Part shown: piece after piece, positions 1-16,712 of the stretch
Layout: each line of letters begins with the position of its first letter
How positions within the stretch are numbered: the stretch's first letter is position 1
Notes under the pieces: generated by a model
The model's database searches: none
What the model saw: the letters and a program-made list of their open reading frames with translations, nothing else
What the model was told of the DNA's origin: nothing
Translations under genes and position numbers: made by a program
DNA from: a virus
Length of the DNA: 64,000 bases
Virus record (IMG/VR): IMGVR_UViG_3300036944_000898
Coordinates: 1 to 64,000 of that record
Reading direction: 5' to 3' (one strand)

Positions 1-1
1 G

Positions 2-397
2 TTTCACTATAATAAAATATCAATAGTAAAATGCGATGTTCAAAATAAATCTGTTATCAACAATAAATCTTTAGATTTATATGCAACCAAAATCATCTTA
101 ACAACAGACCAAGACTTAATCAAAGATAGTGTACAAGATATTCCTGATGAGTTTTTAGAATGGTTTGTTAAAAACCCAAGTTGTGAAGAGGTTAGGACTA
201 AAAGAATATTTGGTATGGGTAGAGTTTATAGTGCTTACGAAATTATCATTCCAAAAGAAGATTTATTTACAGCTACAGGACTTAAAGCATTAGGCATTAC
301 AAAAGAAGAACCTAAAAAAAAGTTTATGTTATGGAAGAAGGTTATTTGGTTTCAAAAGAAGAACCTAAACAAGAAACTTTTGAAGAAGCTGAATTAA
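2..397 (+). CDS. hypothetical protein, N-terminus outside window (0-frame reading)
   Basis: This frame is open from the window edge to TAA at 395-397. Sequence before the A8 run looks protein-like (..PDEFLEWFVKNPSCEEV..GLKALGITKEEPKK). The last 25 codons (FMLWKKVIWFQKKNLNKKLLKKLN) look like out-of-frame AT-rich read-through. Confidence 0.5.
   Translation, partial: FHYNKISIVKCDVQNKSVINNKSLDLYATKIILTTDQDLIKDSVQDIPDEFLEWFVKNPSCEEVRTKRIFGMGRVYSAYEIIIPKEDLFTATGLKALGITKEEPKKKFMLWKKVIWFQKKNLNKKLLKKLN
300..369 (+). repeat. 17-nt direct repeat CAAAAGAAGAACCTAAA (300-316 and 353-369)
   Basis: Exact copies 53 nt apart (54 minus 1). The first reads KEEPK in the upstream ORF frame; the second reads KEEPK only in the -1 frame (ORF 331..603). 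Confidence 0.9.
316..322 (+). other. candidate -1 ribosomal frameshift heptamer A_AAA_AAG (or homopolymer indel)
   Basis: 0-frame codons are cct aaa aaa aag, so 316-322 is A AAA AAG in the X_XXY_YYZ register, the same heptamer as E. coli dnaX. The -1 frame is open from 316 to 603. Confidence 0.35.
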
Positions 398-603
398 AGA
401 CATTATTAAAAGAAGCTACTAATCAAACTACTTGTGCTTCTGAAAGAATGGGTTTTATAAATGGTGCTAAATGGCAACAAGAAAGAATGTATAGTGAGGA
501 AGAACTATTAGAATTTGCTAATTGGTGTAGAATACAAGATAATAAATATCCTAATTGCTGTAGAACTATACAACAATTATTTACACAATTTAAAAAGAAA
601 TAA
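331..603 (+). CDS. hypothetical protein, or the -1-frame C-terminal part of the upstream ORF
   Basis: 90-aa ORF with plausible composition (..EEELLEFANWCRIQDNKYPNCC..). It overlaps the upstream 0-frame tail by 67 nt. Confidence 0.65.
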   Translation: MEEGYLVSKEEPKQETFEEAELKTLLKEATNQTTCASERMGFINGAKWQQERMYSEEELLEFANWCRIQDNKYPNCCRTIQQLFTQFKKK

Positions 604-604
604 A

Positions 605-994
605 ATGAAACAAGAGTTTATACCCTACGAACAAGCATTAGCTTTAAAAGAATTAGGATTTGATGAACCTTGTTGTCAAGCATATCATACAAATGGAGAA
701 AATGAACTTAGTGCTTTCTATTCAAATCCAAATATAGTAGATGAATGGTTAAAAAAATTACCACTAATCAAAGCACCACTTTATCAACAAGCATTTAGAT
801 GGTTTAGAGAGAAGTATGGGTTATTTGGATATGTGTTTGATAGAGAAAGAGGTAATTATTATTGGGGAATTTCCAAATTATTCTCAGGTGAAACTGAAGA
901 AGATTCTTCTGAAGGACCTTTTGATGATTCATACGAAGAAGCAGAACTTGCTTGTCTTGATAAATTAATAGAAATAGTAAAAAATAAAAAATGA
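605..994 (+). CDS. hypothetical protein
   Basis: ATG at 605 lies 1 nt after the upstream stop. The track start at 515 would overlap the previous gene by 89 nt. The stop overlaps the next start (ATGA at 991-994). Confidence 0.75.
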   Translation: MKQEFIPYEQALALKELGFDEPCCQAYHTNGENELSAFYSNPNIVDEWLKKLPLIKAPLYQQAFRWFREKYGLFGYVFDRERGNYYWGISKLFSGETEEDSSEGPFDDSYEEAELACLDKLIEIVKNKK

Positions 995-1386
995 AAAAAA
1001 CATTAATAGCAGTATACGGAAGCCTCAGAAAAGAAATGGGTAATGATGATTTATTATCAACTTCTGAATATTTAGGAGATTTTGAAACTAAACCTGAATT
1101 TAGTCTTTATAGTTTAGGGTTTTATCCAGGACTTAAAACAGGTGGTAAAACTTCTGTTACAATGGAAGTATATGAAGTAGATGAAAAAACTGCTGAAAGA
1201 GTTGATAGATTAGAAAGATATACTCCTGGTGGTAATAATACATTTTATGATAAAATACCTATTGAAACACCTTATGGTGAAGCAAGTGTTTATATTTATG
1301 TAAATGATATACCAAAAGAAAAATTAGTAGAATCTGGTGATTGGAAAGCTTTTAAACAAAGTTATTTTACACCAACAATGAATTAA
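991..1386 (+). CDS. gamma-glutamylcyclotransferase-like (AIG2/GGACT fold) protein
   Basis: N-terminal AVYGSLRKEMGN (YGSL motif) and EVYEVDEKTAERVDRLE block; ~130 aa, the typical family size. Confidence 0.6.
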   Translation: MKKTLIAVYGSLRKEMGNDDLLSTSEYLGDFETKPEFSLYSLGFYPGLKTGGKTSVTMEVYEVDEKTAERVDRLERYTPGGNNTFYDKIPIETPYGEASVYIYVNDIPKEKLVESGDWKAFKQSYFTPTMN

Positions 1387-1395
1387 AAAAATTAA

Positions 1396-1980
1396 ATGAT
1401 AGAAAATTCTTATATACTTGATTTTCAAGTATTAAAAGAACAGAATATTTCTATTAATGAATTTCTAGGTTTAATACATTTGTATGAAAACTTAGGAACA
1501 GAATCTAATATATTAGATTCCTTACAACAAAAACAATTTATAAAACTAAACGAACAAGAAATAATTATTCGTGAAAAAGGTAATCTATTAATAGAGTTAT
1601 TATTAATAGAAAAAGTAAATTCTGTTAAAAATAAAAAAGAAATAAAAAAATCAGAACGACTTGTTAATAGTGAGTTAAATGGATTTATTGAAGAATTTAG
1701 AGATAAATGGAAAGGTTTAAAACCTGGAAGCATGGGTAGTTTAAGTACTTGTAAAGAGAAAATGAAAAGATGGATGCAAGAAAATCCTACATATTCACCA
1801 CAACAAATACTTAAAGCAGCGGACATATACATAAATTCTTTAAATAGTTTAACTTATTTACAACAAGCTGATTATTTTATTTATAAAAAAGATAGTAAAG
1901 AAGAAAGTTCAAGATTAAGTGCTTTTATTGATGAAATAGATACAAAAGTAACTGATAATTGGACTAGCACTTTAAAATAA
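1396..1980 (+). CDS. hypothetical protein
   Basis: 194-aa ORF in the co-directional operon; no motif recognised. Confidence 0.8.
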   Translation: MIENSYILDFQVLKEQNISINEFLGLIHLYENLGTESNILDSLQQKQFIKLNEQEIIIREKGNLLIELLLIEKVNSVKNKKEIKKSERLVNSELNGFIEEFRDKWKGLKPGSMGSLSTCKEKMKRWMQENPTYSPQQILKAADIYINSLNSLTYLQQADYFIYKKDSKEESSRLSAFIDEIDTKVTDNWTSTLK

Positions 1981-1984
1981 ATTT

Positions 1985-2161
1985 ATGACAGAACAAAATA
2001 GTTTATATGATAGAGTGTTTAACACTTTAGTAGAACGACGTGAAAGAATCCTTTCAGGTAAAATAAATTGTATTCCTTGGGGATTACCTAGATTTGAAGA
2101 AGAAAATCCAGGTATAGAACAAGGTAAATATTATAATGTTACTGCAAATAGTAAAGTGGGT
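1985..2161 (+). CDS. replicative DNA helicase (DnaB-like RecA core), exon 1
   Basis: ..CIPWGLPRFEEENPGIEQGKYYNVTANSKVG stops half-way through a P-loop. The track ORF runs 6 more codons to a stop at 2177-2179 that lies inside intron P2. Confidence 0.75.
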
Positions 2162-2214
2162 AATGTTTTGCCCAGCTAAATAGTAATATTTAGATGTAAA
2201 AATAGTAATTTTAC
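2157..2214 (+). ncRNA. intron P1 / guide sequence, P2 and a further hairpin
   Basis: P2 is 2176-2182 CTAAATA with 2187-2193 TATTTAG, capped by a GTAA (GNRA) tetraloop. A second hairpin is 2196-2201 GTAAAA with 2209-2214 TTTTAC. Confidence 0.7.
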
Positions 2215-2238
2215 AAATTAGAAAAAATTAAAAAAAAA

Positions 2239-2667
2239 ATGAACCAAAATAATCAAGAAGTTATTTATGTTTCTTTAAATGATGTACCTCAAACAACTAA
2301 TAGAAAACAATTTGTTAGATATTTTTTAAGAGGTAAAGCTTACATTACTTATTCAGATGAAGCTTGTACACAAATACAATGTAAATCAACAGCTAATAGA
2401 AGTATTACAGATTTACATAAAATAGTAATGTCTAGATTTCCAAAAACATCTTTTGAAGGTGTTGTTAAAATTGTTAAACAATTTATGGAAGAAGATAAAT
2501 CTGTTATTTTAATATGGTGTACACAAATTAACAAACCTGTAATTAGGTTTATTAATAACAAAACAGCAAGTTGGATAAGTAATCATAGTAAAAGTAATTA
2601 TTATACTAAAAAAGGTGTAGATGGTTATTCTTTAAAAGATTATGAAGAAATGATGAATAAATTATGA
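2239..2667 (+). CDS. intron-encoded ORF A1, unknown function (paralog of 4160..4618)
   Basis: 142-aa ORF between P2.x and P3. It shares QCK..NRS..D....V....P and later ISN / KKG blocks with ORF A2. Confidence 0.7.
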   Translation: MNQNNQEVIYVSLNDVPQTTNRKQFVRYFLRGKAYITYSDEACTQIQCKSTANRSITDLHKIVMSRFPKTSFEGVVKIVKQFMEEDKSVILIWCTQINKPVIRFINNKTASWISNHSKSNYYTKKGVDGYSLKDYEEMMNKL

Positions 2668-2685
2668 AAAAAAATTATTATTAAA

Positions 2686-2711
2686 TCGGATGAAAACGGT
2701 GAAAATCTATT
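2686..2711 (+). ncRNA. intron core 5' strands of P3, P4, P5
   Basis: TCGGATG 2686-2692 pairs with CGTCCGA 3465-3471 (P3). ACGGT 2696-2700 pairs with ACCGT 3398-3402 (P4). TCTATT 2706-2711 pairs with AATAGA 3388-3393 (P5). Confidence 0.7.
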
Positions 2712-2717
2712 AAAAAA

Positions 2718-3392
2718 ATGAACAAATATTTAACAAAATTAAAAAATAATAACAAAAATTACAGTGAAAACACTTTAAATGTTAGATATAACATTGAAAG
2801 TTATGGTTGTGGTGATGGTTATAAAAGTGGTTTAAAACATCGATTTTATTCAAAAGATAAATTAGATGTAATATTATTAATTGATATTATTAGAAGATTT
2901 AGATTAGGTACAGTTATTACAAATATAACTGAAAATAGTTTTAAATTTGAAAATACAACAGAAAGAAAACAAATATTTTGTTTTAGAATTTGTAGATTTG
3001 TTAGAACAACTAATATTAGAAAAATATTAGAAAATATTATTTTAATTAATAAATCTGGTGTTAGAATTCAAAATGCTTTTATATTAGGTCATTATTATAC
3101 TCATGTTGATAGTTTACATAATAATATTCCTTATTATTATGGATCAAGAGATATATTATACTGTCCAAGAACAAATAGTTCTGGTAAAGAATTTAATAGT
3201 TTAAACAAACCATATAAAACATTAAAAGAATGTATTTCCAATATTGATTTAGAGGGAATGCCTTATTCTAGTATTTTTCAAGCTTCTACAGTTGATCTTA
3301 TTGAAGAAAAAACAGAATTATTTAATATCTTAAAAACTAAAGATTTTAAAAAAGCTGAAAAATATTTGTTAAAACTTTGGTACTTAAAATAG
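2718..3392 (+). CDS. intron-encoded ORF B in the P5 loop, unknown function
   Basis: 224-aa ORF bounded by the two P5 strands; its TAG stop (3390-3392) lies inside P5'. Only a weak GDG / ..DKLDVILLIDIIRRFRLG.. resemblance to LAGLIDADG enzymes. Confidence 0.7.
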   Translation: MNKYLTKLKNNNKNYSENTLNVRYNIESYGCGDGYKSGLKHRFYSKDKLDVILLIDIIRRFRLGTVITNITENSFKFENTTERKQIFCFRICRFVRTTNIRKILENIILINKSGVRIQNAFILGHYYTHVDSLHNNIPYYYGSRDILYCPRTNSSGKEFNSLNKPYKTLKECISNIDLEGMPYSSIFQASTVDLIEEKTELFNILKTKDFKKAEKYLLKLWYLK

Positions 3393-3497
3393 ACAATACC
3401 GTGCCAAGCTTCAGGGAAGACTGATGAAGGTGTAACGACTAAGGACATTACGATGAGCCTACAGCGTCCGACATCCTTATAGGATGATGAGATAGTC
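3388..3497 (+). ncRNA. intron catalytic core (P5'-P4'-P6-P7-P3'-P8-P7')
   Basis: Visibly GC-richer than its flanks. P7 is GACTA 3437-3441 with TAGTC 3493-3497. P8 is CATCC 3472-3476 with GGATG 3482-3486. The strings GACAATACCGTGC, TAACGACTA and GAGATAGTC resemble the T4 td intron core as I recall it. Confidence 0.7.
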
Positions 3498-3533
3498 TAG
3501 ACTATAAATATAAAATATTAAATTTAGAAAAAA

Positions 3534-4133
3534 ATGAACAAAATTTGCAGAAACGCTAAAAATTATAAATTAACAGAAGGTCAAGAATACGAGATACTTC
3601 AAGAAGAAAATGGTTACGTAAGAATTATTAATGATTCAGGTAAAAACGTAAGATACGATGCTTCATTATTTGAAGACGTATTTATACCACCACCACCTCC
3701 TGCTAGAACAGAACAAGATTGCATTAATTCAATTACATACGATGGAACTACATTAAGATACATTAATATTAATGAAATACATAGACAGATAAGTGTTAAT
3801 TTAACATTAATTCAAAATAGTGGTTTTTCATGTGGTATTAATAGAATGGAAGGTATTAATACACTTTGTAGTAGAATTGAAAATCAAGATTTTGTAAATA
3901 CAGATGATGATGATTTTATTGAATTAAAAAAAGCATTATTTACTAAAGTATTTACTTATTTTACAACAAGCGAGGCTTCTAGAGGTATGTGGATGTGTTC
4001 TACTAATGAAGATGATAATTATGAAGATTATCAAACATTGTTAGATACATTATCAACACATAATAGTGGATGGTTTTTAAATCCTAATTCAGGTAACCAA
4101 ATTAAACTTTGGTATGGTATTATAAACCAATAA
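3534..4133 (+). CDS. intron-encoded ORF C, unknown function
   Basis: 199-aa ORF downstream of P7'. It has an N-terminal small beta-rich-looking segment, a PPPPP linker and an acidic C-terminal half; no nuclease motif recognised. Confidence 0.7.
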   Translation: MNKICRNAKNYKLTEGQEYEILQEENGYVRIINDSGKNVRYDASLFEDVFIPPPPPARTEQDCINSITYDGTTLRYININEIHRQISVNLTLIQNSGFSCGINRMEGINTLCSRIENQDFVNTDDDDFIELKKALFTKVFTYFTTSEASRGMWMCSTNEDDNYEDYQTLLDTLSTHNSGWFLNPNSGNQIKLWYGIINQ

Positions 4134-4159
4134 TAAATTTAATTATTAAATTATAGAGA

Positions 4160-4618
4160 ATGAAATTATACGTAGAAACAGAAAAGATTAAAGGAGAGAG
4201 AATAACTACGTTTTTAAAAAAATGCTACAATTTATATCCAAACTCTTATAATATTGTTTTTACAAGAACTTATTTTGATAAATTATTTCAAAATAAGCAA
4301 TGTAAAAAGGGTAATAGAAGTTTTGAAGATATATATGCTGTTATTAAAACATATTATCCAAACTGTACTAAAAAACACTTTGCTAATCAATTAGAAAAAA
4401 TAATTAAAAATTCTAATATAAAATTTTTATTTTGTCCAGATATTCAAAAATGGGTATTAATGAATACTTATCAAGGATCATCAATTAGTAATTATAAATA
4501 TTTATATGATTATAATTCTAGTAGATTAAAACTAAATAAAAAAGGTCAAGGTGAATATACTTATTTTGATATTATGTCATTAATGGGTTATTCTAAAATA
4601 CAATGTAAGATACAATAG
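4160..4618 (+). CDS. intron-encoded ORF A2, unknown function (paralog of 2239..2667)
   Basis: 152-aa ORF ending 9 nt before the 3' splice site. Confidence 0.7.
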   Translation: MKLYVETEKIKGERITTFLKKCYNLYPNSYNIVFTRTYFDKLFQNKQCKKGNRSFEDIYAVIKTYYPNCTKKHFANQLEKIIKNSNIKFLFCPDIQKWVLMNTYQGSSISNYKYLYDYNSSRLKLNKKGQGEYTYFDIMSLMGYSKIQCKIQ

Positions 4619-4627
4619 TTTCATACG

Positions 4628-5569
4628 AAAACACAATTTGCAGATTGGGGATTTGTATATAACCCAATACAACAAGTAATAGACAATAATTTAGATATTA
4701 AATTAAAAATTTTTTATTTTACTTTAGAAATGTCTAAAGAAGAAAAAATGTTATCAGTATTCTCTAATATTTTATATATTAAGGAAGGTATTAGATTGAG
4801 TCCAACTCAATTAAAAAGTACAAAAGCAGATAATGTTTTATCTCAAGAACATTTAGATATTATAGAAAAATATCAAGAATATTTTAATAAAATTGAAGAA
4901 ATTGTTGAATTTATTGATGACGTAAGAAATCCTTACGGAATATACAATTTAGTACGAAAGTATGCATTAGCTAATGGTAAAGTTCATTACAGAACTATTA
5001 ACATTGAAGGTAAAGCAATAGAAGTTGAAGATTATTATGAACCTAATAATCCTGAAGAATATGTAATTGTAATGATAGATCATATTGGACTCATTAGTCC
5101 TGAAAAAAATTATGATACAGGAATACCTATGACATTACATGAATCAATAGGAAAATTAAGTTCAGATTATTTAATTAAACTTCGTAATAGATTCAAATAT
5201 ATACCTGTCGTTATACAACAACAAGCTGCTGCTCAAGAATCTCTTGAAAATAAAAAATATAACAAATTAAAACCAACATTAGATGGTCTAGCTGGAAACA
5301 AAGAAACTCAACGTGATGCCAATGTTGTTGTTGGTTTATTTAGTCCATTTAGACATGAAATACCAGAGTATTTAGGTTATGATGTTACATTTTTTAAAGA
5401 TAATATTAGATTTCTTGAAATCTTAGGAGGACGAGAAGGCGGTGGTGGAACTATTTGTCCATTATATTTTGATGGTGCAGTAAATTATTTTAAAGAACTA
5501 CCTTTACCAAATGATGGTGAAAAATTACATAAAGTATGTAATTTTATAAAAAGTATTAGAAAAAAATAA
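4628..5569 (+). CDS. replicative DNA helicase (DnaB-like RecA core), exon 2
   Basis: The frame is open from 4619. KTQFADWGFVYNP..IFYFTLEMSKEEKM continues exon 1 to give ANSKVGKT (Walker A) plus the DnaB-type (S/T)LEMS motif. Also YVIVMIDHIGLI (Walker B-like). The track starts it at internal Met 4730. Confidence 0.8.
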   Translation, partial: KTQFADWGFVYNPIQQVIDNNLDIKLKIFYFTLEMSKEEKMLSVFSNILYIKEGIRLSPTQLKSTKADNVLSQEHLDIIEKYQEYFNKIEEIVEFIDDVRNPYGIYNLVRKYALANGKVHYRTINIEGKAIEVEDYYEPNNPEEYVIVMIDHIGLISPEKNYDTGIPMTLHESIGKLSSDYLIKLRNRFKYIPVVIQQQAAAQESLENKKYNKLKPTLDGLAGNKETQRDANVVVGLFSPFRHEIPEYLGYDVTFFKDNIRFLEILGGREGGGGTICPLYFDGAVNYFKELPLPNDGEKLHKVCNFIKSIRKK

Positions 5570-5605
5570 TTTAATAGTGGTGGTATATGGACGGAAGACA
5601 AATGT

Positions 5606-6370
5606 ATGATTGAATTACCTACACAAAAAACTAAAGCATCTAGAGTAAATCCTAAAAAAATTATTCTATTTTCAAATCCTAAATCAGGTAAAACTACAGC
5701 AGTGGCTGCTTTGGAAAATAACCTTATTTTAGATTTAGAAAATGGTTCTGAATTTTTAGATGCTTTAAAAATAAATGTGTTACAACTCGCAAGAGATAAC
5801 AACAAAACACCTTTAACAGTGTTAAAAGAAATAATTAATACTATAAGAGAATCCAATGAAAAAAAAGGAGGTTATACTTATAAGTTTATCACTTTAGATA
5901 CTGTGTCCGCATTAGAAGATATTGCATTAGAATTAGCAAATATATTGTATCGTAAAACACCAATGGGAAGAAATTGGACTGGAGAAGACGTAACAAAGCT
6001 ACCAAATGGAGCTGGTTATCAATATCTTAGAGAAGCAATGGATGTTATTTTAAATGAAATAGAACCTTTGTGTGATACCTTAATTATTTTAGGACACCTT
6101 AAAGCTAAATTTGTTGAAAAAGAAGGAAAAGAAATGGAATCTAGAGGATTAGCATTAACTGGTAAAATAGCATCTATACTATGTTCTCAGGTAGACGCAA
6201 TAGGTTATGTTTATCGTGAAGATAACAAAACTTTAGTAAACTTTGCTCCTTCAGAATCTTTAATTGTAGGATCTAGACCTGATCATTTGAAGAATCAAAC
6301 TATAACATTAATTGAATCTGATAAGGATGGTAAATTAACCATTGATTGGAGTAAGATTTTTATAGAATAA
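5606..6370 (+). CDS. Sak4-like / AAA_24-type RecA-fold ATPase
   Basis: N-terminal Walker A FSNPKSGKTT, Walker B-like FITLDTVSALE, ~250 aa, followed by an SSB-like gene. Confidence 0.55.
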   Translation: MIELPTQKTKASRVNPKKIILFSNPKSGKTTAVAALENNLILDLENGSEFLDALKINVLQLARDNNKTPLTVLKEIINTIRESNEKKGGYTYKFITLDTVSALEDIALELANILYRKTPMGRNWTGEDVTKLPNGAGYQYLREAMDVILNEIEPLCDTLIILGHLKAKFVEKEGKEMESRGLALTGKIASILCSQVDAIGYVYREDNKTLVNFAPSESLIVGSRPDHLKNQTITLIESDKDGKLTIDWSKIFIE

Positions 6371-6398
6371 TAGTTACTTGGTCGTAACAAACAGTTAA

Positions 6399-6425
6399 GA
6401 GGTTCTGTAAAAACCTCATTTTTTA
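6399..6425 (+). terminator. intrinsic terminator
   Basis: GAGGTT 6399-6404 with AACCTC 6412-6417, followed by a T-run. Confidence 0.6.
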
Positions 6426-6458
6426 TATAAGCCAAAATAATTTTAAAATAAAGAATAT

Positions 6459-7025
6459 ATGAGTTTTAACTTAAATGATAAGAGTTTTGATGGAAGTGTT
6501 GCAATTTTCAATAATGGAATTGCAGGAAAAGTTAATGACGTAAAAGTTACTGTAATTAAAAAAACAGCAGTAGATCCAGATAATGCACCTGATTATAAGG
6601 TAGTATTTTCTGATCAAATTGGAGATGTAAATGTAGGATTTTATTATCCTGTTGCAAATCCTTTATTTGATGAAAAAAGAAATAAAGATTTAGAAGGATG
6701 GACAATTGGTAGAATTTTATCAATTGCTAAATCTGTATTACCAAAAGATTTTGTTTTTGAAAATAAAGATACAGCTAAAGAAGTAGTTGATTATTTATTT
6801 TCTTTAATTAGACAAAATTCTGAAGGTAAAACAGTTAATGTGTTTGTTACTTATGGTACTACACAAAAAGCTTCTAAATATTTAGGACTTAGATATTTTG
6901 ATTTTGTTGAATCTTCTGATACAACAGTTTCAAGATTAGCTAAAAAACCAACAGATTTAATGGAAAGAGTTGAAGCAGATGCTCAAACAACTGATTCAGC
7001 TTCAACTCCAAAAACTGATTGGTAA
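6459..7025 (+). CDS. putative ssDNA-binding protein
   Basis: 188-aa ORF next to the Sak4-like ATPase. The flexible-looking C-terminal tail ends ..DSASTPKTDW. Assignment rests on context only. Confidence 0.35.
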   Translation: MSFNLNDKSFDGSVAIFNNGIAGKVNDVKVTVIKKTAVDPDNAPDYKVVFSDQIGDVNVGFYYPVANPLFDEKRNKDLEGWTIGRILSIAKSVLPKDFVFENKDTAKEVVDYLFSLIRQNSEGKTVNVFVTYGTTQKASKYLGLRYFDFVESSDTTVSRLAKKPTDLMERVEADAQTTDSASTPKTDW

Positions 7026-7059
7026 TAAATAAAATGTTAGTATAATTCGTAAGAACTAC

Positions 7060-7282
7060 TGAACGGTTAAAGGGTGTGTTAATAATAAAGAAATTAATAA
7101 GGTAAAGAGTATTAACACTAGTCCCTAAGCGGTTTATTTATAACATAAATAAAATGTGTTGTTCCCTTGAGAAAGGAATACGAGTTGCAATATAAAAGTG
7201 TGTACGAAAATAGTAAGGACAGCACTATGTAATAATTGTTTATACTGGTTACTAACAACACAAATGAGTTCTCAACATCGGT
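7060..7282 (+). ncRNA. candidate structured RNA of unknown class
   Basis: Non-coding and GC-richer than its surroundings. Long complementary pairs: 7076-7083 GTGTTAAT with 7111-7118 ATTAACAC; 7133-7141 with 7145-7153 (9 bp); 7156-7163 GTGTTGTT with 7254-7261 AACAACAC. Confidence 0.35.
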
Positions 7283-7378
7283 AGTCAAGTGGTACGAGTG
7301 GTTAGTCGATAGACTGCAACGTTACAGAAATGTAGATACAAAGAACATTCTAGGTGGGTTCGATTCCCACCTTGACTT
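7283..7378 (+). tRNA. tRNA-like element (non-canonical, 96 nt, isotype undetermined)
   Basis: Perfect T-arm GTGGG-TTCGATT-CCCAC (7354-7370). 7-bp acceptor AGTCAAG 7283-7289 with CTTGACT 7371-7377. D-loop-like AGTGGTTAG. I could not fold a canonical anticodon arm by eye. Confidence 0.45.
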
Positions 7379-7408
7379 CTAATATTAACTAAAATTAAAC
7401 AAAATGAA

Positions 7409-7591
7409 ATGAATATAATAAAATACATAAAAAAGTTAATTAAAAAACAAAAACTTCTTAAAAAATATAAAAATGATCCTTTAACAATTTTTCAACTTAA
7501 AAAAATTTTAGAACAAGAAATGTTTGAAAAACATTATCTTAATCAAATATATTATGAAATAAGATGTTATAATAGGTTAAAAAAATTATGA
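7409..7591 (+). CDS. small basic hypothetical protein
   Basis: 60-aa ORF whose stop overlaps the primase start (ATGA). Confidence 0.5.
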   Translation: MNIIKYIKKLIKKQKLLKKYKNDPLTIFQLKKILEQEMFEKHYLNQIYYEIRCYNRLKKL

Positions 7592-8601
7592 TTAACTTAA
7601 ATAAAAAAATGGTTAATAAAGAACTGTTATTAAAATATATAACAGATTTAGAAATTTACCAAAAATATATTAATGAAGAAATAGTTCCTGGTAAAAATAT
7701 ATTATCACCATTTAGAAATGAAAATAATGCTTCATTTGGATTATTTAAAGGTGAAGGTGGTGAAATATGTTTTAAAGATTTTAAATTAGGTGGTGGAGAT
7801 TGTATTACATTTGTAAAAACATTATTTAATTTAACATATTTTGAAGCATGTTCTAAAATTGCAATTGATTTTGGAATGGGTGATGATTTTATTGTTAAAA
7901 AAATAAATAAAACTGAAACAAACAATATTATACCAATTAATAGAAATGAATTTTTACATAAAGCAGGTACTTTAAGTCTTCAAAAAACTAAAAGAGAATG
8001 GAAAGCTTATGACTTATTATATTGGCAAGAATATGGTATATCTTTAGATACTTTAAAGTTTTTTAATGTAGAACCAATTTCACATTTTTTTGTAAATGAT
8101 AAAATAATAACAGCAGATAAATATGCATATTGCTTTAAAGAATTTAAAGATAATAAAGAAACTTATAAAATTTATCAACCATTTAATAAAACATACAAGT
8201 GGATAAATAGTCATAATAATAGTATATGGCAAGGTTGGTCACAATTACCTAAAACAGGTGAAATTTTAATTATTACAAAATCATTAAAAGATGTAATGGC
8301 ATTATATGAAGTTGCTGGGATATGTTCAGTTTCTTTACAATGTGAAAACGTATTACCCAAACAACAAATATTTGAAGAATTAAGTAGTAGATTTTTAGAT
8401 ATTTATGTTTTTTATGATAATGATTATGATAAAGAAGAAAATTGGGGTCAATTATTTGCTCAAAAATTTAAAGAATCATTTAATGTTATGGATATAATAA
8501 TTCCAGATGAATACCAATGTAAAGATTTTTCAGATTTTATAAAAAAATATGGAATAGTAAAAGCAAAAGAATTAGTTAAATCACAAATAATACCTTTTTA
8601 A
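7588..8601 (+). CDS. DnaG/T7-type primase-like protein (degenerate Zn finger plus TOPRIM)
   Basis: SPFRNENNASFGLF..CFKDFKLGGGDCITFV aligns to the CPFHxExxPSF..CFGCG zinc-ribbon region. ILIITKSLKDVMAL and FYDNDYD resemble TOPRIM E and DxD motifs. Confidence 0.55.
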   Translation: MINLNKKMVNKELLLKYITDLEIYQKYINEEIVPGKNILSPFRNENNASFGLFKGEGGEICFKDFKLGGGDCITFVKTLFNLTYFEACSKIAIDFGMGDDFIVKKINKTETNNIIPINRNEFLHKAGTLSLQKTKREWKAYDLLYWQEYGISLDTLKFFNVEPISHFFVNDKIITADKYAYCFKEFKDNKETYKIYQPFNKTYKWINSHNNSIWQGWSQLPKTGEILIITKSLKDVMALYEVAGICSVSLQCENVLPKQQIFEELSSRFLDIYVFYDNDYDKEENWGQLFAQKFKESFNVMDIIIPDEYQCKDFSDFIKKYGIVKAKELVKSQIIPF

Positions 8602-8602
8602 A

Positions 8603-9007
8603 ATGACAATTATGAATAGATTACTTGCAGTATGTTGTGAATTAAGAGAAGATTTAATAAATCATAAAATATTAAAAGATTGTAAAAAAGTTGGTGAATT
8701 TTTATCAGCACCTGAATTTACATTAATTAATGTAGAACACAATAATACTAAAGTAGGATTAAAAAAAGGTTCTAACTCTGTTGTATTTGAAGTTTATGAA
8801 GTAAATGTTACAATTTTAGATAAAGTTTCAACATTAAAAGGTTTTTATCAACATAATTACAAAATAAACATTCATGATAAAGCAGTAATAGATACGCCTT
8901 TTGGAGTAGCATATACTTACTTAGAAAAACATACAAAAATAACATCTGATAATATCATAAAAGAATATGATTATACAGATTATTTAACATATAATATAAA
9001 TAAATAA
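8603..9007 (+). CDS. divergent GGCT-like protein (paralog of 991..1386)
   Basis: VVFEVYEVNVTILDKVSTLKG..IDTPFGVAYTYL parallels VTMEVYEVDEKTAERVDRLER..IETPYGEASVYIY. The N-terminal YGSL is replaced by CCEL. Confidence 0.45.
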   Translation: MTIMNRLLAVCCELREDLINHKILKDCKKVGEFLSAPEFTLINVEHNNTKVGLKKGSNSVVFEVYEVNVTILDKVSTLKGFYQHNYKINIHDKAVIDTPFGVAYTYLEKHTKITSDNIIKEYDYTDYLTYNINK

Positions 9008-9013
9008 AAAAAA

Positions 9014-9682
9014 ATGAAAAAAATAGGAATAGTTGGTTGGAAAACAGGAGATAATAGTTTTGGTGTTACTACACCGTATATTGAATGGTTAAGTAAATTT
9101 GGTATTGTTCAAGCTTTATCACCACAAAAAGGAATCGACGAAACAATTGATTTATTAGTATTACCTGGTGGTTTAGATATTGCACCACAATCTATGGGTC
9201 AAGTACCTGGATTTCTTACATCTAATACTGATGTAATGAAACAATACTTTTACGATAACAATTTAGATCAATATTTAGAAAAAGGTACTCCAATATTTGG
9301 AATTTGTTTAGGATTTCAACAACTATGTGTTAAATTTGGAGGACAATTAGTTCAAAATTATGGTTTTGCTTATTCTAATAAAGGAAGACATGAAAGAGTT
9401 GATTCTTTAAAAGTAGTTTCTAATGAATTATACAAAATTGTAGATGAAGTAAGTTTTAAAAAAGTTAAAAAATATGAAGTAAATTCATTACATCATCAAG
9501 GTTGTTTTTTAAAAGGAATTGAAGGTACATCTATTGAAGCTTTAGCTATTGATGATACTTTTGAAAATATAGAAATTGCTAAATTTAGTGAAAATGTATA
9601 TGGTGTACAATATCATCCAGAAGAAATAAATGACGGTTTATCAACATTAATTATTAAAAAATTATTAAACTATAATGAATAA
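9014..9682 (+). CDS. class I glutamine amidotransferase / peptidase C26 (gamma-glutamyl hydrolase, PuuD-like)
   Basis: Nucleophile elbow IFGICLGFQQL, SLHHQG, and VQYHPE (His-x-Glu of the triad). Confidence 0.7.
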   Translation: MKKIGIVGWKTGDNSFGVTTPYIEWLSKFGIVQALSPQKGIDETIDLLVLPGGLDIAPQSMGQVPGFLTSNTDVMKQYFYDNNLDQYLEKGTPIFGICLGFQQLCVKFGGQLVQNYGFAYSNKGRHERVDSLKVVSNELYKIVDEVSFKKVKKYEVNSLHHQGCFLKGIEGTSIEALAIDDTFENIEIAKFSENVYGVQYHPEEINDGLSTLIIKKLLNYNE

Positions 9683-10601
9683 CACAAAATTAATAGATAG
9701 TTCTAAATTATTTACAAGTCGAAAATCTGTTGTAAATAAAAAAAGTAAAGTAATAACACAATTTAGACCAATGATTTTGTCAAGACATCCTAGTCATGAT
9801 TGTCTTAGAGCGGGTACTAAAAATATTGTACCATTACCATATCGTTCTGTAATTAGATTTGGTTCTACAACAGAAGTTCCTGATACAATCACAAATGGTG
9901 GTAATAGAATTGAAATTAATACTATTCAAAGTATTAAAAATTCAGCAAATAAATTGTTAATGAAACAAAAGTTTCAACAAGCAGCAGTAAAAACAGCAGA
10001 ATGGATTTCATATGCTAATATAGAAACATTACGTGGATGGTCTTCTGAAAAATTTCCAATTGTAGCAAAAGCACATTTTGGTTCTAAAGGAAGAGGTAAT
10101 ACCTTATTAAAAACAGCTCAAGAATTAGATCAATGGTTAATAACAAATAGTCCTTCTAGTTATATTTTTGAAAAATTTATGAACTATGGTCATGAATTTA
10201 GATTACATGTTACTGAACAAGGTTGTTTTTATGCTTGTAGAAAAGCTTTAAAACAAGGTGTTGCTGACGAAGATAAATGGAGAAGACACGATGATATTTG
10301 TGTATGGTTTTTAGAAACTAATCCTGATTTTCAAAAACCTAATTCATGGAATGATATAGAAAAAGATTGTGTTTTAGCATTAAAATCTGTTGGTGCTGAT
10401 ATTTTATCTTTTGATGTAAGAGTTCAATCTCCTACAGATTCTAAAGGTAATCCTAGAGAATATCAAGATTATATTTTATTAGAGTGTAATTCTGCAAGTT
10501 CTATGGATAATGGTTCAGGAGAATTATCAGTATGTGCTAAAAAATATATTGAAGAAGTTAGAAAAGTAATCGTAAATAAAGCAAACAAAATTTCAAAATA
10601 A
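9675..10601 (+). CDS. ATP-grasp family ligase
   Basis: FPIVAKAHFGSKGRGNTLL, EKFMNYGHEFRLHV, and ILLECNSASSM (E-x-N metal site). Confidence 0.65.
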   Translation: MNNTKLIDSSKLFTSRKSVVNKKSKVITQFRPMILSRHPSHDCLRAGTKNIVPLPYRSVIRFGSTTEVPDTITNGGNRIEINTIQSIKNSANKLLMKQKFQQAAVKTAEWISYANIETLRGWSSEKFPIVAKAHFGSKGRGNTLLKTAQELDQWLITNSPSSYIFEKFMNYGHEFRLHVTEQGCFYACRKALKQGVADEDKWRRHDDICVWFLETNPDFQKPNSWNDIEKDCVLALKSVGADILSFDVRVQSPTDSKGNPREYQDYILLECNSASSMDNGSGELSVCAKKYIEEVRKVIVNKANKISK

Positions 10602-10602
10602 T

Positions 10603-11688
10603 ATGAAAAAAACATTAAATGTACATTTTAGTGCAAATTTAGTAGATGATTCTATTGTTAAATTTTTAAAACAAGAATTTGATATTAATATTGTAAATTT
10701 ATCTCAAAATGAAATAACTAATCCAAAAAAAGAATCTGTTGAATTATTAAAAACAATTGATTTAATTATTTTTACAGGTGGTGAAGATGTAAATCCTGCT
10801 TATTATGATGAAAGTATTGGAAAATATACACATATTAATAATAAAAGAGATAACTTAGAATTTAGTTTATTAAATCCTAGAAAATTACCATCTTCTATTA
10901 TACGTACAATTCCTAAATTGGGAATATGTCGTGGTGCTCAATTATTAACTGTTCATAATGGTGGAAAATTAATTCAACATGTTGAAGGTCATAAAAATAA
11001 TAATCAAGTAATTGAAGTTGTTGTAACAAGTGGATTAACAATAAATATTGAAGTTTCTTCAGACCATCATCAAATGATGTTTCCTTATAATTTACCAGAA
11101 AGTCATTATGAATTAATTGGATATTCTAAAAAATTCCAAAGTAATACATATTTAAATGGTGCAAATGAAGAAATTAAATTACCTAAAAACTTTTTAGAAC
11201 CTGAAATTATTTATTATAAAAATAAAAATTCATTATGTATTCAAGCACATCCAGAATGGTGTATTGGTTCTGAAGGTTCTAATTATTGTTTAAAATTAAT
11301 AAATAAATATTTATTAAAAAATGAAAACAAAAATGAAAAAAAATCTTTATATTCTTTACCTGAAGGATTACCAGAAGGTAATTTTCCATTAGGTTGGAAC
11401 GCATATGATATTCATGGTGTTCATTATAAATTTGATGGTGAAAGATTTATTGAAGCTGGAGAATTTAATCAAATAAATCTTCAAAAAAAAATTAATGAAT
11501 TAAAAAAGAAATCTTCAATTAGTCATTCATGGTCTGTACCTATTTATGATTCTTTTAATGAAAAAGGTGGAAAAACTGCTAATGAAATAAAATTACCAGA
11601 TATGGAGTATTACGCACCAATTGATATTGTTCAATTAGAACCTATATCACAAGAAACTGAAAGTAAAAATGAAACAAATATTTTTTAA
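10603..11688 (+). CDS. class I glutamine amidotransferase / C26-like protein with C-terminal extension
   Basis: LIIFTGGEDVNP, LGICRGAQLL (Cys nucleophile), IQAHPEW (His/Glu), plus ~120 extra C-terminal residues. Confidence 0.65.
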   Translation: MKKTLNVHFSANLVDDSIVKFLKQEFDINIVNLSQNEITNPKKESVELLKTIDLIIFTGGEDVNPAYYDESIGKYTHINNKRDNLEFSLLNPRKLPSSIIRTIPKLGICRGAQLLTVHNGGKLIQHVEGHKNNNQVIEVVVTSGLTINIEVSSDHHQMMFPYNLPESHYELIGYSKKFQSNTYLNGANEEIKLPKNFLEPEIIYYKNKNSLCIQAHPEWCIGSEGSNYCLKLINKYLLKNENKNEKKSLYSLPEGLPEGNFPLGWNAYDIHGVHYKFDGERFIEAGEFNQINLQKKINELKKKSSISHSWSVPIYDSFNEKGGKTANEIKLPDMEYYAPIDIVQLEPISQETESKNETNIF

Positions 11689-11705
11689 TTAAAAACATAA
11701 AATAA

Positions 11706-12512: not shown

Positions 12513-12543
12513 TATTAATTACAAAATAAAAAAAATATAAAAA

Positions 12544-14502: not shown

Positions 14503-14516
14503 AAGTTAAAAAAAAT

Positions 14517-16265: not shown

Positions 16266-16268
16266 TTA

Positions 16269-16709: not shown

Positions 16710-16712
16710 AAA

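What the first reader, a model, noticed from the sequence alone, without database searches (positions are those of the whole stretch)
2157..4633. A 2.47-kb td-like group I intron splits the replicative helicase inside its Walker A motif and carries ORFs in three separate peripheral positions
Seen directly. The ORF at 1985 ends ..TANSKVG at T2161. The frame open from 4619 continues KTQFADWGF..IFYFTLEMS from A4628. Joining 2161 to 4628 in phase 0 gives ANSKVGKT (AxxxxGKT P-loop) followed by the DnaB-type (S/T)LEMS motif, so neither half is a complete ATPase. Group I rules are met: the last exon base T2161 forms a U.G wobble in a 5-bp P1 (2157-2161 TGGGT with 2170-2174 GCCCA). The adjacent guide segment 2164-2169 TGTTTT pairs perfectly with the first 6 nt of exon 2 (P10). 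The intron ends in G4627. P2 (2176-2193) is a 7-bp hairpin with a GTAA tetraloop. Long-range pairs give P3 (2686-2692 with 3465-3471), P4 (2696-2700 with 3398-3402), P5 (2706-2711 with 3388-3393), P7 (3437-3441 with 3493-3497) and P8 (3472-3486). The core strings resemble the T4 td intron from memory. The unusual part is the ORF load. Phage group I introns normally carry none or one homing-endonuclease ORF in one loop. Here ORF A1 sits between P2.x and P3, ORF B fills the P5 loop, and ORFs C and A2 lie after P7', with A2 ending 9 nt before the splice site. P1 is ~0.5 kb from P3, and the terminal G is ~1.1 kb from P7'.
Basis: partly seen in the sequence, partly recalled or inferred. Interest (0 to 1): 0.88.

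Follow-up and report, generated by a model that had tools for sequence, protein, structure and literature searches.

The report
Four-gene group I intron in helicase
The replicative helicase gene of this marine crAss-like phage is split inside its ATP-binding loop by a real self-splicing-type (group I) intron, unusual because four protein genes, none a recognisable homing endonuclease, each sit in their own RNA loop.

Summary
Joining 2161 to 4628 gives a 372-aa DnaB-like helicase reading ANSKVG|KTQ. Relatives without the insert read straight through the same codons.

The 2466-nt insert is a phage-type (IA-like) group I intron.
- A 761-nt relative at the same site (L028) matches Rfam RF00028 full length (67.1 bits).
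- The window's own 3' core matches it as a 5'-truncated hit (25.5 bits, E 5e-5).
- With the ORFs removed, seven homologues keep 95% of the proposed pairs, against 35-42% in register-shifted controls. Compensatory changes occur in 16 pairs.

The ORFs occupy four loops, not three. Each is closed by its own stem: a P2/P3 stem for A1, P5 for B, P9 for C, and a terminal stem holding A2's start and stop codons.

About 24 related loci carry the intron at this site, at 0.5-4.1 kb with different ORF sets. One is the cultured Cellulophaga phage phi14:2, where it is unannotated. About 34 loci lack it.

No window ORF matches a known endonuclease. A1, A2 and C also occur as free-standing genes beside intron-less helicases.

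Verdict: a new variant of a known kind. Splicing itself is untested.

The parts
1985..2161 (+). Helicase exon 1 (59 codons, ends ...TANSKVG)
   Evidence: It is 75% identical to phi14:2 exon 1. It is contiguous with exon 2 in cr108_1 and about 34 IMG/VR loci.
2157..2174 (+). P1 (TGGGT 2157-2161 with GCCCA 2170-2174, U.G at the 5' splice site), enclosing the guide TGTTTT 2164-2169 that pairs with exon 2 (P10)
   Evidence: The P1 G-C pair becomes U-A in L036. U.G is invariant in 7 of 7 sequences. P10 covaries in phi14:2: GATTT with AAATC (read by eye).
2176..2193 (+). P2 hairpin (7 bp, GTAA loop). The stop codon for ribosomes reading through from exon 1 is at 2177-2179.
   Evidence: 100% of cells paired, one compensatory pair.
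2201..2682 (+). Peripheral stem AATAGTAATT (2201-2210) with AATTATTATT (2673-2682), closing around ORF A1
   Evidence: Predicted independently by RNAalifold, with covarying pairs. Also present in the single-sequence fold. Duplex energy -7.9 kcal/mol. Stem and ORF are both absent from L028.
2239..2667 (+). ORF A1 (142 aa, family fam0)
   Evidence: dN/dS is 0.16-0.45. It is a free-standing gene just upstream of intron-less helicases in many loci.
2686..2711 (+). 5' strands of P3 (2686-2692), P4 (2696-2700) and P5 (2706-2711), with J3/4 AAA and J4/5 GAAAA
   Evidence: P3 has two compensatory pairs (UA/CG to CG/UA).
2718..3392 (+). ORF B (224 aa, fam4) in the P5 loop; its stop codon TAG lies inside P5'
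   Evidence: L007 and L028 have P5 closed by a GAAA loop with no ORF. dN/dS is 0.70-0.86. Only 11 homologues were found and none has a Pfam domain.
3388..3497 (+). 3' half of the catalytic core: P5', P4', P6/P6a (3403-3431), J6/7, P7 (3437-3441), P7.1 hairpin (3442-3460), P3' (3465-3471), P8 (3472-3486), J8/7, P7' (3493-3497)
   Evidence: Rfam RF00028 5'-truncated hit on window 3386-3513: 25.5 bits, E 5.3e-5. 84% identical over 70 nt to the Rfam-positive intron of Dulem virus 41. Covariation in P6a, P7.1 and P8.
3502..4156 (+). Long-range P9: CTATAA 3502-3507 plus ATTAAATT 3517-3524 pair with AATTTAAT 4136-4143 plus TTATAG 4151-4156, closing around ORF C
   Evidence: RNAalifold. Duplex energy -8.3 kcal/mol. 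The strands are nearly invariant, with one compensatory pair. In L028 the loop is 40 nt and holds no ORF.
3534..4133 (+). ORF C (199 aa, fam3; homologue of phi14:2 g028)
   Evidence: 34% identity, E 1e-19. AlphaFold2 model with pLDDT 89.6: an SH3/KOW-like N-terminal barrel plus a weakly GNAT-like alpha/beta domain. dN/dS is 0.30-0.57. Free-standing upstream of intron-less helicases.
4160..4624 (+). Terminal stem ATGAAATTA (4160-4168) with TAGTTTCAT (4616-4624), closing around ORF A2 and containing its start and stop codons
   Evidence: -7.2 and -8.7 kcal/mol for two slightly different flanking stretches. L007 has ATGCAA with TTGCAT, a compensatory change seen by eye in the output.
4160..4618 (+). 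ORF A2 (152 aa, fam0)
   Evidence: It is the only ORF in the compact intron L028. AlphaFold2 model pLDDT 71.5, with only weak winged-helix matches. 907 clusters at 50% identity.
4619..4627 (+). 3' tail TTTCATACG ending in the terminal G (4627), the 3' splice site
   Evidence: Nearly all inserts at this site end in G at the boundary set by the protein alignment.
4628..5569 (+). Helicase exon 2 (KTQFADW...; carries the LEMS motif and the rest of the DnaB-like domain)

Best explanation
Window 2162-4627 is one group I intron of the phage IA type. P7.1 lies between P7 and P3', and the core closely resembles other phage introns. It is inserted at the G|K codon boundary of the Walker A motif of the DnaB-like replicative helicase.

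Inferred mechanism, by analogy with established group I chemistry:
1. The pre-mRNA folds P1-P10 around the P3-P8 core.
2. An external guanosine attacks after U2161.
3. The terminal G4627 docks in P7.
4. The exons are ligated to restore ...ANSKVGKTQ... .

Four protein genes interrupt the 2.47 kb without breaking the fold, because each sits in the loop of its own closing helix:
- A1 in an extra stem between P2 and P3;
- B in P5;
- C in P9;
- A2 in a last stem that holds its start and stop codons, 3 nt before the terminal G.

With the ORFs removed, about 330 nt of RNA is left. It is collinear with a 761-nt relative that a covariance model recognises as a complete group I intron.

The ORFs are probably real genes; A1, C and A2 are under purifying selection. 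They are not recognisable homing endonucleases. They belong to families of small accessory genes that lie free-standing beside the helicase gene in related phages. The intron loops therefore act as tolerated sites for such genes.

Whether any of these proteins moves the intron or helps it fold is unknown. Translating the ORFs and folding the core are expected to be mutually exclusive on a single transcript (inference).
For: Shown:
- In-phase junction restoring AxxxxGKT plus LEMS. DnaB-like helicase hits.
- An uninterrupted allele in cr108_1 reads ANSKIGKTQIAD across the junction. About 34 loci are uninterrupted and 24 are interrupted at the same codon boundary.
- phi14:2 is split at the identical point by 2616 nt.
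- The compact homologue L028 5229-5447 matches RF00028 at 67.1 bits, E 3.6e-17, over the full model including P1.
- The window's own 3386-3513 matches RF00028 as a truncated hit, E 5.3e-5.
- 84% identity over 70 nt to the Rfam-positive Dulem virus intron.
- On a MAFFT alignment of 7 ORF-less introns, 95.1% of cells pair, against 35-42% when partners are slid. 16 pairs change on both sides, against 2-5 in slid controls. 0 of 500 shuffles reach these values.
- RNAalifold independently recovers P1, P2, P3, P4, P5, P6, P6a and P8, plus the stems closing A1 and C.
- z = -5.5 for the window's own ORF-less RNA.
- Modular presence or absence of each ORF: L028 has only A2; L007 lacks B; L036 and phi14:2 lack A2.
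- dN/dS below 0.6 for A1, C and A2.

No nuclease family was found for any window ORF in Pfam, PHROGs or NCBIfam (all four ORFs), or in PDB profile searches of families fam0 (A1/A2), fam3 (C) and fam4 (B). Foldseek was run only on the models of A2 and C.
Against: - No RNA data: splicing itself is not demonstrated here or, as far as I could find, for phi14:2.
- Rfam finds nothing in the intact window at its gathering threshold, or in a 3-kb permissive scan. That is expected with ORFs of 0.4-0.7 kb inside the model. The direct window hit is truncated and below the gathering score.
- P1 is short (5 bp). P10 is only 3-6 bp among relatives. Some relatives have uncompensated P1 mismatches (L048, L049).
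- The terminal G is 1.13 kb from P7' in sequence. It depends on two AU-rich stems (P9 and the A2 stem) that show little covariation because they hardly vary.
- ORF B evolves almost neutrally (dN/dS 0.7-0.9).
- The covariation set is small (7 sequences), and I derived the tested structure partly from these same sequences.
Confidence: 0.9

Rival explanations
1. The intron loops are occupied by selfish genes, not passive cargo. One or more of A1, A2, B or C would be a new, unrecognised kind of homing endonuclease that targets the helicase P-loop region. It would have moved from a free-standing position beside the helicase into the intron, following the 'collaborative homing' route to mobile introns. 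This refines the best explanation rather than excluding it.
For: - Presence/absence polymorphism at one exact site in about 58 loci.
- A fam0 gene is the only ORF in the minimal intron L028.
- fam0 and fam3 genes lie directly upstream of intron-less helicases (L020, L030, L046, L054, L189, L192). This resembles the layout of free-standing endonucleases next to their target gene, described in PMC3984707.
- A second intron with a GIY-YIG gene, and LAGLIDADG ORFs, occur in the same gene and lineage.
Against: - There is no nuclease motif or fold. In fam0 the only invariant residues are R53 and C92 in the wide alignment. Y4, Y38, C48, R53, S54 and C92 are invariant in the narrow one.
- Foldseek gives only weak winged-helix matches for A2 (E at least 0.17). 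For C it gives SH3-like plus GNAT-like matches.
- fam0 forms tandem arrays of 3-5 copies away from any helicase (L188, L190, L191). It has 907 clusters. That looks like a diversifying accessory family rather than a site-specific nuclease.
- Many introns of the lineage carry no fam0 gene at all (L049, L050, L040).
Confidence: 0.25
2. The element is a decayed intron that no longer splices, or splices poorly. The helicase would then be a pseudogene, or be rescued by another helicase or by a host or phage splicing factor.
For: - The ORF load is very large, with long distances between P1 and P3 and between P7' and the terminal G.
- The intact sequence gives no Rfam hit.
- P1 and P10 are short.
Against: - Every core helix is intact in the window.
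- Both exons keep open frames and 49-98% identity to intact helicases.
- The same architecture persists across loci whose exon 2 is 84-98% identical to the window's, with compensatory changes in P1, P2, P3, P6a, P7.1 and P8. That implies selection on the fold.
- The cultured, viable phage phi14:2 has the same split and no second copy of this helicase elsewhere in its genome by tblastn (only the two exon pieces match).
- Each ORF has a closing stem.
Confidence: 0.05
3. The helicase is expressed as two separate polypeptides that assemble, with no RNA splicing, as some phage genes split by mobile endonuclease genes do.
For: RefSeq annotates phi14:2 this way: g024 is a 64-aa hypothetical protein and g029 is 'DnaB'.
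Against: - The break falls between G and K of GKT.
- The downstream frame has no start codon before the Met of LEMS. The second piece would lack the P-loop lysine, and the first would end ...KVGNVLPS*.
- The interruption is bounded exactly by a U.G P1 pair and a terminal G, and contains a complete group I core.
Confidence: 0.01
4. The insert is two or more nested or tandem self-splicing elements (a twintron) rather than one intron.
For: Relatives do have a second, independent group I intron 9 nt upstream (L005 and others).
Against: - Only one set of core motifs (P4-J4/5, J5/4-P4', J6/7-P7, J8/7-P7') exists in the whole 64-kb window.
- The window lacks the upstream intron.
- The spacers between the ORFs correspond one-to-one to pieces of a single core.
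Confidence: 0.02

Closest known systems
T4 td, nrdB and nrdD (sunY) introns and other phage IA-type group I introns (Rfam RF00028)
   Same: - Self-splicing-type core with P7.1 between P7 and P3', and a U.G pair at the 5' splice site.
- A stop codon soon after the 5' splice site.
- Insertion in a highly conserved motif of a DNA-metabolism gene.
- ORFs looped out of peripheral helices.
- The compact relative L028, with one ORF between the core and the 3' splice site, resembles the nrdD (sunY) layout (from my own knowledge).
- The core string is 70-80% identical to introns in Klebsiella, Vibrio, Flavobacterium, Enterococcus and Pelagibacter phages.
   Different: - Four ORFs in four loops instead of none or one.
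- None of them is a GIY-YIG, HNH, LAGLIDADG or other recognised endonuclease.
- The ORF complement differs from locus to locus in the same intron lineage.
IStrons (for example CdISt1 of Clostridioides difficile): an IA2 group I intron with an IS605-type element at its 3' end
   Same: A bacterial-type IA intron carrying more than one ORF, placed between the core and the 3' splice site, while remaining splicing-competent (PMC3984707).
   Different: - No transposase (TnpA/TnpB) homology was found.
- The ORFs are spread over four loops rather than sitting in one 3' block.
- The host is a phage gene with a fixed insertion site.
Collaborative homing / endonuclease-gene invasion systems (free-standing endonuclease next to an ORF-less intron, as in the cyanophage psbA / F-CphI case)
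   Same: The gene families found inside this intron are found free-standing right next to the intron's target gene in relatives. That is the layout proposed as the precursor of mobile introns (PMC3984707).
   Different: No endonuclease activity or motif is known for these families. Several unrelated families show the same inside/outside pattern (fam0, fam3, fam5, fam9).
Group I introns of gut crAss-like phages (Delta and Zeta groups; Yutin et al. 2021, PMC7886860)
   Same: The same virus order. Introns lie in core replication and structural genes. The introns complicate annotation.
   Different: [quoted passage not shown]
- This one is in the helicase of marine phi14:2-like phages (Steigviridae-like).
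- It has no such domain, so that kind of search would not find it.
Large multi-ORF or nested group I introns of fungal mitochondria
   Same: Kilobase-sized group I introns with ORFs in more than one loop (from my own knowledge; see also PMC6279837, listed).
   Different: Those ORFs are LAGLIDADG or GIY-YIG endonucleases or maturases, or host genes such as rps3. The introns are organellar, not phage.

Membership tests
Group I intron (Rfam RF00028) | Conserved catalytic core P3-P8 (P4-P6 and P3-P7-P8 domains) recognised by the covariance model | tested here: met
   - L028, the compact homologue at the same site, scores 67.1 bits (gathering score 50) over the full model.
- Window 3386-3513 gives a 5'-truncated hit of 25.5 bits, E 5.3e-5.
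- The intact window gives no hit, because the ORFs interrupt the model.
Group I intron (Rfam RF00028) | P1 with a U.G wobble at the 5' splice site, formed with an internal guide sequence that also pairs with exon 2 (P10) | tested here: met
   - U2161.G2170 is invariant in 7 of 7 sequences.
- The P1 pair G-C becomes U-A in L036.
- P10 is 6 bp in the window and changes in step in phi14:2.
Group I intron (Rfam RF00028) | Terminal guanosine at the 3' end of the intron | tested here: met
   G4627. Nearly all inserts at this site end in G.
Group I intron (Rfam RF00028) | Helices supported by compensatory base changes among homologues | tested here: met
   16 of 68 pairs change on both sides. 95.1% of cells pair, against 35-42% in slid controls. 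0 of 500 shuffles reach these values. RNAalifold agrees. Caveat: only 7 sequences, and I derived the structure partly from them.
Group I intron (Rfam RF00028) | Guanosine-dependent self-splicing and exon ligation | not testable with these tools
   Needs RT-PCR or RNA-seq, or in vitro splicing. Indirect support only: in-phase restoration of GKT, and intron-less alleles.
Subgroup IA2 (td-like) | P7.1 and P7.2 between P7 and P3', with the subgroup-specific P2 and P9 periphery | tested here: inconclusive
   One covarying hairpin (P7.1, 3442-3460) lies between P7 and P3'. A second one (P7.2) is not evident in the window. No subgroup classifier was available. The similarity to T4 td itself comes from memory.
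Mobile (homing) group I intron | [quoted passage not shown] | tested here: not met
   - No hit for A1, B, C or A2 in Pfam, PHROGs or NCBIfam.
- No hit in PDB profile searches of their three families.
- No hit in Foldseek, run for A2 and C only.
- LAGLIDADG-like ORFs occur in some relatives (L040, L051), not in the window.
Mobile (homing) group I intron | Presence/absence polymorphism at one precise site among related genomes | tested here: met
   24 loci interrupted and about 34 uninterrupted at G59|K60.
IStron | IS200/IS605-type transposase genes embedded near the 3' end of the intron | tested here: not met
   No transposase family hit.
Twintron / twin-ribozyme intron | A second ribozyme core inside the intron | tested here: not met
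   Only one set of core motifs in the window.
DnaB-like replicative helicase (the host gene) | Walker A GKT/S, followed by the DnaB-type C-terminal domain in one polypeptide | tested here: met
   Met only after joining the exons: DnaB_C E 1.8e-6 and phrog_19 E 4.4e-16. 49% identity over 375 aligned positions to the cr108_1 replicative helicase.

The most novel reading that the evidence does not exclude
In this phage lineage a group I intron acts as a gene-carrying platform. Its peripheral loops (the P2/P3 junction, P5, P6/P7.1-P8, P9 and the 3' tail) repeatedly gain and lose small accessory genes. These come from the same pool that fills the variable block next to the helicase. At least one family (fam0, winged-helix-like, 900+ clusters) would be either a new class of intron-mobilising protein or an RNA-folding helper for an intron whose parts lie kilobases apart.
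Probability: 0.3. Interest if true: 0.8.

Novelty: new variant of a known kind. Interest (0 to 1): 0.62.

Why it matters
1. Annotation. The replicative helicase of phi14:2-like marine crAss-like phages is one spliced gene. The RefSeq record of the cultured phage phi14:2 lists it as a 64-aa hypothetical protein plus a truncated 'DnaB', with four 'hypothetical' genes in between. Searches that find introns through endonuclease domains will miss this lineage.

2. Intron biology. About 20 variants at one site range from 0.5 to 4.1 kb. They carry zero to five or more ORFs from some 15 families, in at least five structural positions. This natural series shows how much foreign coding sequence a group I fold can tolerate and how each insertion is closed by a stem.

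3. Origin of mobile introns. The same families occur inside the intron and free-standing beside the intron-less gene. This makes the proposed route from free-standing gene to intron ORF testable in a culturable system (phi14:2 on Cellulophaga baltica).

4. It raises the question of what non-endonuclease genes gain from residing in an intron of an essential early gene.

Tried and rejected
- Rfam on the intact window at the gathering threshold, and permissively on 1900-4900, found nothing relevant. A 54-kb permissive scan of five related loci also missed L028. The same intron scored 67 bits once searched on its own. The earlier misses are therefore filter and interruption effects, not evidence against an intron.
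- Rfam on phi14:2 9000-17000 gave no hit, for the same reason.
- ORF function. Pfam, PHROGs and NCBIfam gave nothing significant; the best were C's N-terminus to phrog_4927 (unknown function, E 4.7e-5) and weak DUF hits. PDB profile searches also gave nothing significant.
- Foldseek for A2 gave only weak winged-helix matches. For C, PDB matches were SH3-like and GNAT-like at E 5e-3 or weaker. BFVD gave only uncharacterised phage proteins.
- I looked for remnants of exon 1 or of the RNA core in the spacers of intron-less loci that carry A1-C-A2 upstream of the helicase. The spacers are 1-40 nt or the genes overlap, and no remnants were found. I considered that the shared order A1, C, A2 inside and outside the intron proves a single relocation event. 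I rejected that as unproven: the chance of a shared order for three genes is 1 in 6, and L046 and L192 have the order A2-A1-C.
- I searched viral contigs for the ligated junction string. There were 16 hits, but only one is a helicase, and a distant one. Not informative.
- The 519-nt insert in L064, a distant helicase at 46% identity, could not be given clean splice sites by eye. I left it out.
- Sigma-70 promoter scanning was not attempted. Bacteroidota and crAss-like promoters are not covered by that tool.

Full report
**What the window is.** Window 1-8000 carries the replication module of a crAss-like phage. The joined helicase is most similar to those of Cellulophaga phage phi14:2 (Crassvirales, Steigviridae), the uncultured gut phage cr108_1, and crAss001-like phages. 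IMG/VR holds many closer relatives, up to 98% identical in exon 2.

**Check of the observation.** Every coordinate in the finding is correct.
- The ORF from 1985 ends ...TANSKVG at T2161, then runs on in frame to a stop at 2177-2179.
- The frame that opens at 4619 reads KTQFADW...FTLEMS from A4628.
- Joining 2161 to 4628 is in phase. The product is a 372-aa protein that matches DnaB_C (E 1.8e-6) and the PHROG family of DnaB-like replicative helicases (E 4.4e-16).
The insert ends in G4627.
- ORFs A1 (2239-2667), B (2718-3392), C (3534-4133) and A2 (4160-4618) are present. A1 and A2 are distant paralogues.

**Is the junction real?**
- cr108_1 has an uninterrupted helicase that aligns across the junction as ANSKIGKTQIAD (49% identity over 375 aligned positions).
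- Among 63 IMG/VR loci found with the joined protein, about 34 are uninterrupted at this point. 23 of them, plus phi14:2 (24 in all), are interrupted at exactly the same G|K boundary, by 519 to 4091 nt.
- The cultured phage phi14:2 is one of the interrupted genomes. Exon 1 ends at 13149 and exon 2 starts at 15766 of NC_021806, with 2616 nt and genes g025-g028 between them. RefSeq annotates the two exons as unrelated genes g024 and g029.
- Exon 2 has no start codon before the Met of LEMS. Two independent polypeptides would therefore leave no intact P-loop.

**Is it a group I intron?** Rfam finds nothing in the intact window. That is expected when 0.4-0.7-kb ORFs sit inside the model. Three lines of evidence settle the point.
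1. L028 carries a 761-nt version at the same site. Its RNA (P1 to P9) is contiguous and it has a single ORF. Positions 5229-5447 match RF00028 over the whole model at 67.1 bits (gathering score 50, E 3.6e-17). The alignment starts in exon 1 at GUAAAGUGGGU.
2. The window's own contiguous 3' half of the core (3386-3513) matches RF00028 as a 5'-truncated hit covering model positions 80-253, at 25.5 bits and E 5.3e-5. It is also 84% identical over 70 nt to an ORF-less intron in the primase/polymerase gene of Dulem virus 41, which scores 71.7 bits.
3. I removed the ORFs from seven introns of the window's subfamily (window, L005, L039, L041, L007, L036, L028) and aligned the rest with MAFFT.
Versions with partners slid by 1-3 columns pair 35-42%.
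   - 16 pairs change on both sides, against 2-5 in slid controls. 0 of 500 shuffles reach either value.
   - Compensatory changes fall in P1 (G-C to U-A in L036, where the Val codon GTG is GTT), P2, P3 (two pairs), P6a, P7.1 and P8.
   - RNAalifold, given no structure, recovers P1, P2, P3, P4, P5, P6, P6a and P8.
   - The window's ORF-less RNA alone folds with z = -5.5.

By eye, phi14:2 also changes P10 (GATTT with AAATC), P4 (ACGGG with CCCGT) and P7 (GACTG with CAGTC) in step. Only one set of core motifs exists in the 64-kb window, so this is one intron and not a twintron.

**Where the ORFs sit.** I find four, each closed by its own helix.
- A1 lies in the loop of a 10-bp stem, 2201-2210 with 2673-2682. 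RNAalifold predicts it with covarying pairs. L028 lacks both the stem and the ORF.
- B fills the P5 loop and its stop codon lies in P5'. In L007 and L028, P5 is closed by a GAAA loop instead.
- C lies in the loop of a long-range P9, 3502-3524 with 4136-4156. This long-range pairing replaces the local 3' hairpin I had first drawn there. In L028 that loop is 40 nt.
- A2 lies in a last 9-bp stem, ATGAAATTA 4160-4168 with TAGTTTCAT 4616-4624. The stem contains A2's start and stop codons and ends 3 nt before the terminal G. L007 has ATGCAA with TTGCAT there.

In RNA terms, then, P1-P2, P3-P8, P9 and the 3' splice site are brought together even though they are 0.5 and 1.1 kb apart in sequence. The P9 and A2 stems are AU-rich and almost invariant, so covariation says little about them.

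**What the ORFs are.**
- None of the four matches a homing-endonuclease family, or any named family, in Pfam, PHROGs or NCBIfam. PDB profile searches of their three families were also negative.
- A1 and A2 form family fam0. It has 907 clusters at 50% identity in the large protein library, and all proteins listed are unnamed.
- The A2 model (pLDDT 71.5) gives only weak winged-helix matches.
- The C model is confident (pLDDT 89.6). It shows an SH3/KOW-like N-terminal barrel shared with many small phage proteins, plus an alpha/beta domain weakly similar to GNAT folds (best E 5.5e-3).
- B has only 11 homologues.
- dN/dS against four relatives is 0.16-0.45 for A1, 0.30-0.57 for C, 0.29-0.54 for A2 and 0.70-0.86 for B. 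A1, C and A2 therefore behave as constrained genes. B is barely constrained, yet stays open even in phi14:2.
- All four ORFs follow A-rich leaders, as is usual for Bacteroidota translation starts (my own knowledge).

**The lineage as a whole.** ORFs found in the 24 inserts (three of them duplicate contigs) cluster into about 20 families.
- The window-type introns carry subsets of A1, B, C and A2.
- The phi14:2-type introns carry other sets (fam2, fam5, fam7, fam8, fam9), a LAGLIDADG-like ORF between P7 and P7' in L040 and L051, and fam0 at the 3' end in some.
- fam0 occurs in three different structural positions: between P2 and P3, in P5 (L042), and in the 3' tail.

**The unexpected result** is. 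The same families are free-standing, tightly packed genes immediately beside intron-less helicase genes.
- L020: A1-C-A2-helicase.
- L030: A1-C-helicase.
- L054: fam5-A1-C-helicase.
- L046 and L192: A2-A1-C-helicase.
- A dozen loci: A1-helicase-fam9.

No remnants of exon 1 or of the RNA core lie between them. I cannot tell the direction of movement. The shared gene order is not strong evidence for a single event (1 in 6 by chance, and not always kept). The pattern fits two readings:
- passive capture of accessory genes from the variable block next to the helicase.

Blocks of short unknown genes are a noted feature of crAss-like genomes (PMC10136315).

**Mechanism, with steps marked.**
- Shown: the fold, the splice-site signatures, the in-phase junction, the site polymorphism and the ORF modularity.
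- Inferred: guanosine-initiated self-splicing that restores GKT. Ribosomes from exon 1 stop at 2177-2179 before reaching the core. Translating B and A2 competes with folding, because their ends lie in P5 and in the terminal stem.
- Unknown: how the intron moves, and what the four proteins do.

**Comparison with what is known.**
- Group I introns in phage DNA-metabolism genes are classical.
- Introns in crAss-like phages were reported for the gut Delta and Zeta groups. [quoted passage not shown]
- I found no report of the helicase intron of phi14:2-like phages.
- The closest multi-ORF precedent in bacteria is the IStron, an IA2 intron with an IS605-type element at its 3' end. It differs in gene content and in having one insertion block.

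The thing is a member of a known kind (group I intron), with all sequence-level defining features met. Its architecture is unusual: four non-endonuclease ORFs in four loops, within a lineage that swaps such ORFs freely.

**Verdict.** Observation confirmed and interpretation supported with the refinements above. Novelty: new variant of a known kind. Interest 0.62. The score reflects a specialist's likely surprise at the ORF load and the inside/outside pattern, and the availability of a cultured phage for direct tests. It is held down because the ribozyme is ordinary and splicing and ORF functions are untested.

Noticed in passing
L005 897-1845 (also L007, L036/L037, L043/L044, L048, L051); the corresponding window site is 2152|2153: These relatives carry a second, independent group I intron. 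It has a GIY-YIG ORF and a canonical core (GTTCAACGACTA ... GATATAGTC), and is inserted between AGT|AAA (Ser56|Lys57). A 9-nt mini-exon AAAGTGGGT is left between the two introns. The window lacks this upstream intron.
   Followed up: partly
L041 ~6690/7675; L058 ~2110/3216; L062 ~3133/4211; L063 ~4875/6001 (locus coordinates): The same helicase gene is interrupted at further positions in other relatives: residues about 289/290, 261/262, 281/283 and 163/164. LAGLIDADG-like or GIY-YIG ORFs lie in three of the four gaps (L058, L062, L063). The gene is a hot spot with at least five or six insertion sites.
   Followed up: no
L004 (NC_021806.1) 12982-16707: The RefSeq annotation of the cultured Cellulophaga phage phi14:2 lists helicase exon 1 as hypothetical protein g024 (64 aa) and exon 2 as a 280-aa 'DnaB' (g029) starting at the Met of LEMS. 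g025-g028 lie between them as ordinary genes. The PolB intron of the same record was curated as a join, but the helicase intron was not.
   Followed up: yes
L188 2745-3532; L190 183-1417; L191 1675-3329: Genes of the A1/A2 family (fam0) occur as tandem arrays of 3-5 paralogues in blocks of small genes, away from any helicase. Some proteins of 255-304 aa contain two copies of the domain. The family has 907 clusters at 50% identity and no name in any library searched.
   Followed up: partly
L052 4914-5303; L004 14804-15052 (phi14:2 g027) and other phi14:2-type introns: An open reading frame (fam1, motif DNPVPS ... NGVET) runs straight through the conserved core (J5/4-P4'-P6 ... J6/7-P7 ... to J8/7). 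The conserved 'peptide' motifs are simply the conserved RNA strings GACAATCCCGTGCC and AACGGTGTAGAGACT. It is unclear whether it is ever translated.
   Followed up: no
phi14:2-type introns, e.g. L040 insert positions 35-75 and L067 insert positions 1240-1275 (counted from the first base of the insert): In this subfamily a conserved GAAA-capped hairpin (AATCCTA GAAA TAGGGGTT, with covariation) and about 20 more nt lie between the P3 5' strand (CTCA/TTCC/CTCT/CATC, covarying with TGAG/GGAA/GGAG/GATG) and P4. Group I introns normally have a 3-nt J3/4 there. The window subfamily has the normal AAA.
   Followed up: no
window 515-994, 991-1386 and 1396-1980: Upstream of exon 1 lie three genes:
- a small gene shared with L020 (EFIPYE.ALALKELGFDE);
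- an ORF that looked AIG2/GGACT-like to me by eye, which NCBIfam did not confirm; a fam0 gene sits next to a gene with a Pfam GGACT hit in L188;
- a 194-aa gene ending ...DNWTSTLK, also seen upstream in L020 and L030. I guess it is the replisome-organizer-like gene; no family hit and no comparison with phi14:2 g022 was made.
Gene order in this block differs between relatives.
   Followed up: no
L039 3506-3545 (locus), within the P1 loop: L039 has a 33-nt hairpin-forming insertion (ATTATAAATTTGACATACGTTATTTACGTATGAG) between the 5' splice site and the internal guide sequence. Even the P1 loop tolerates insertions in this lineage.
   Followed up: no
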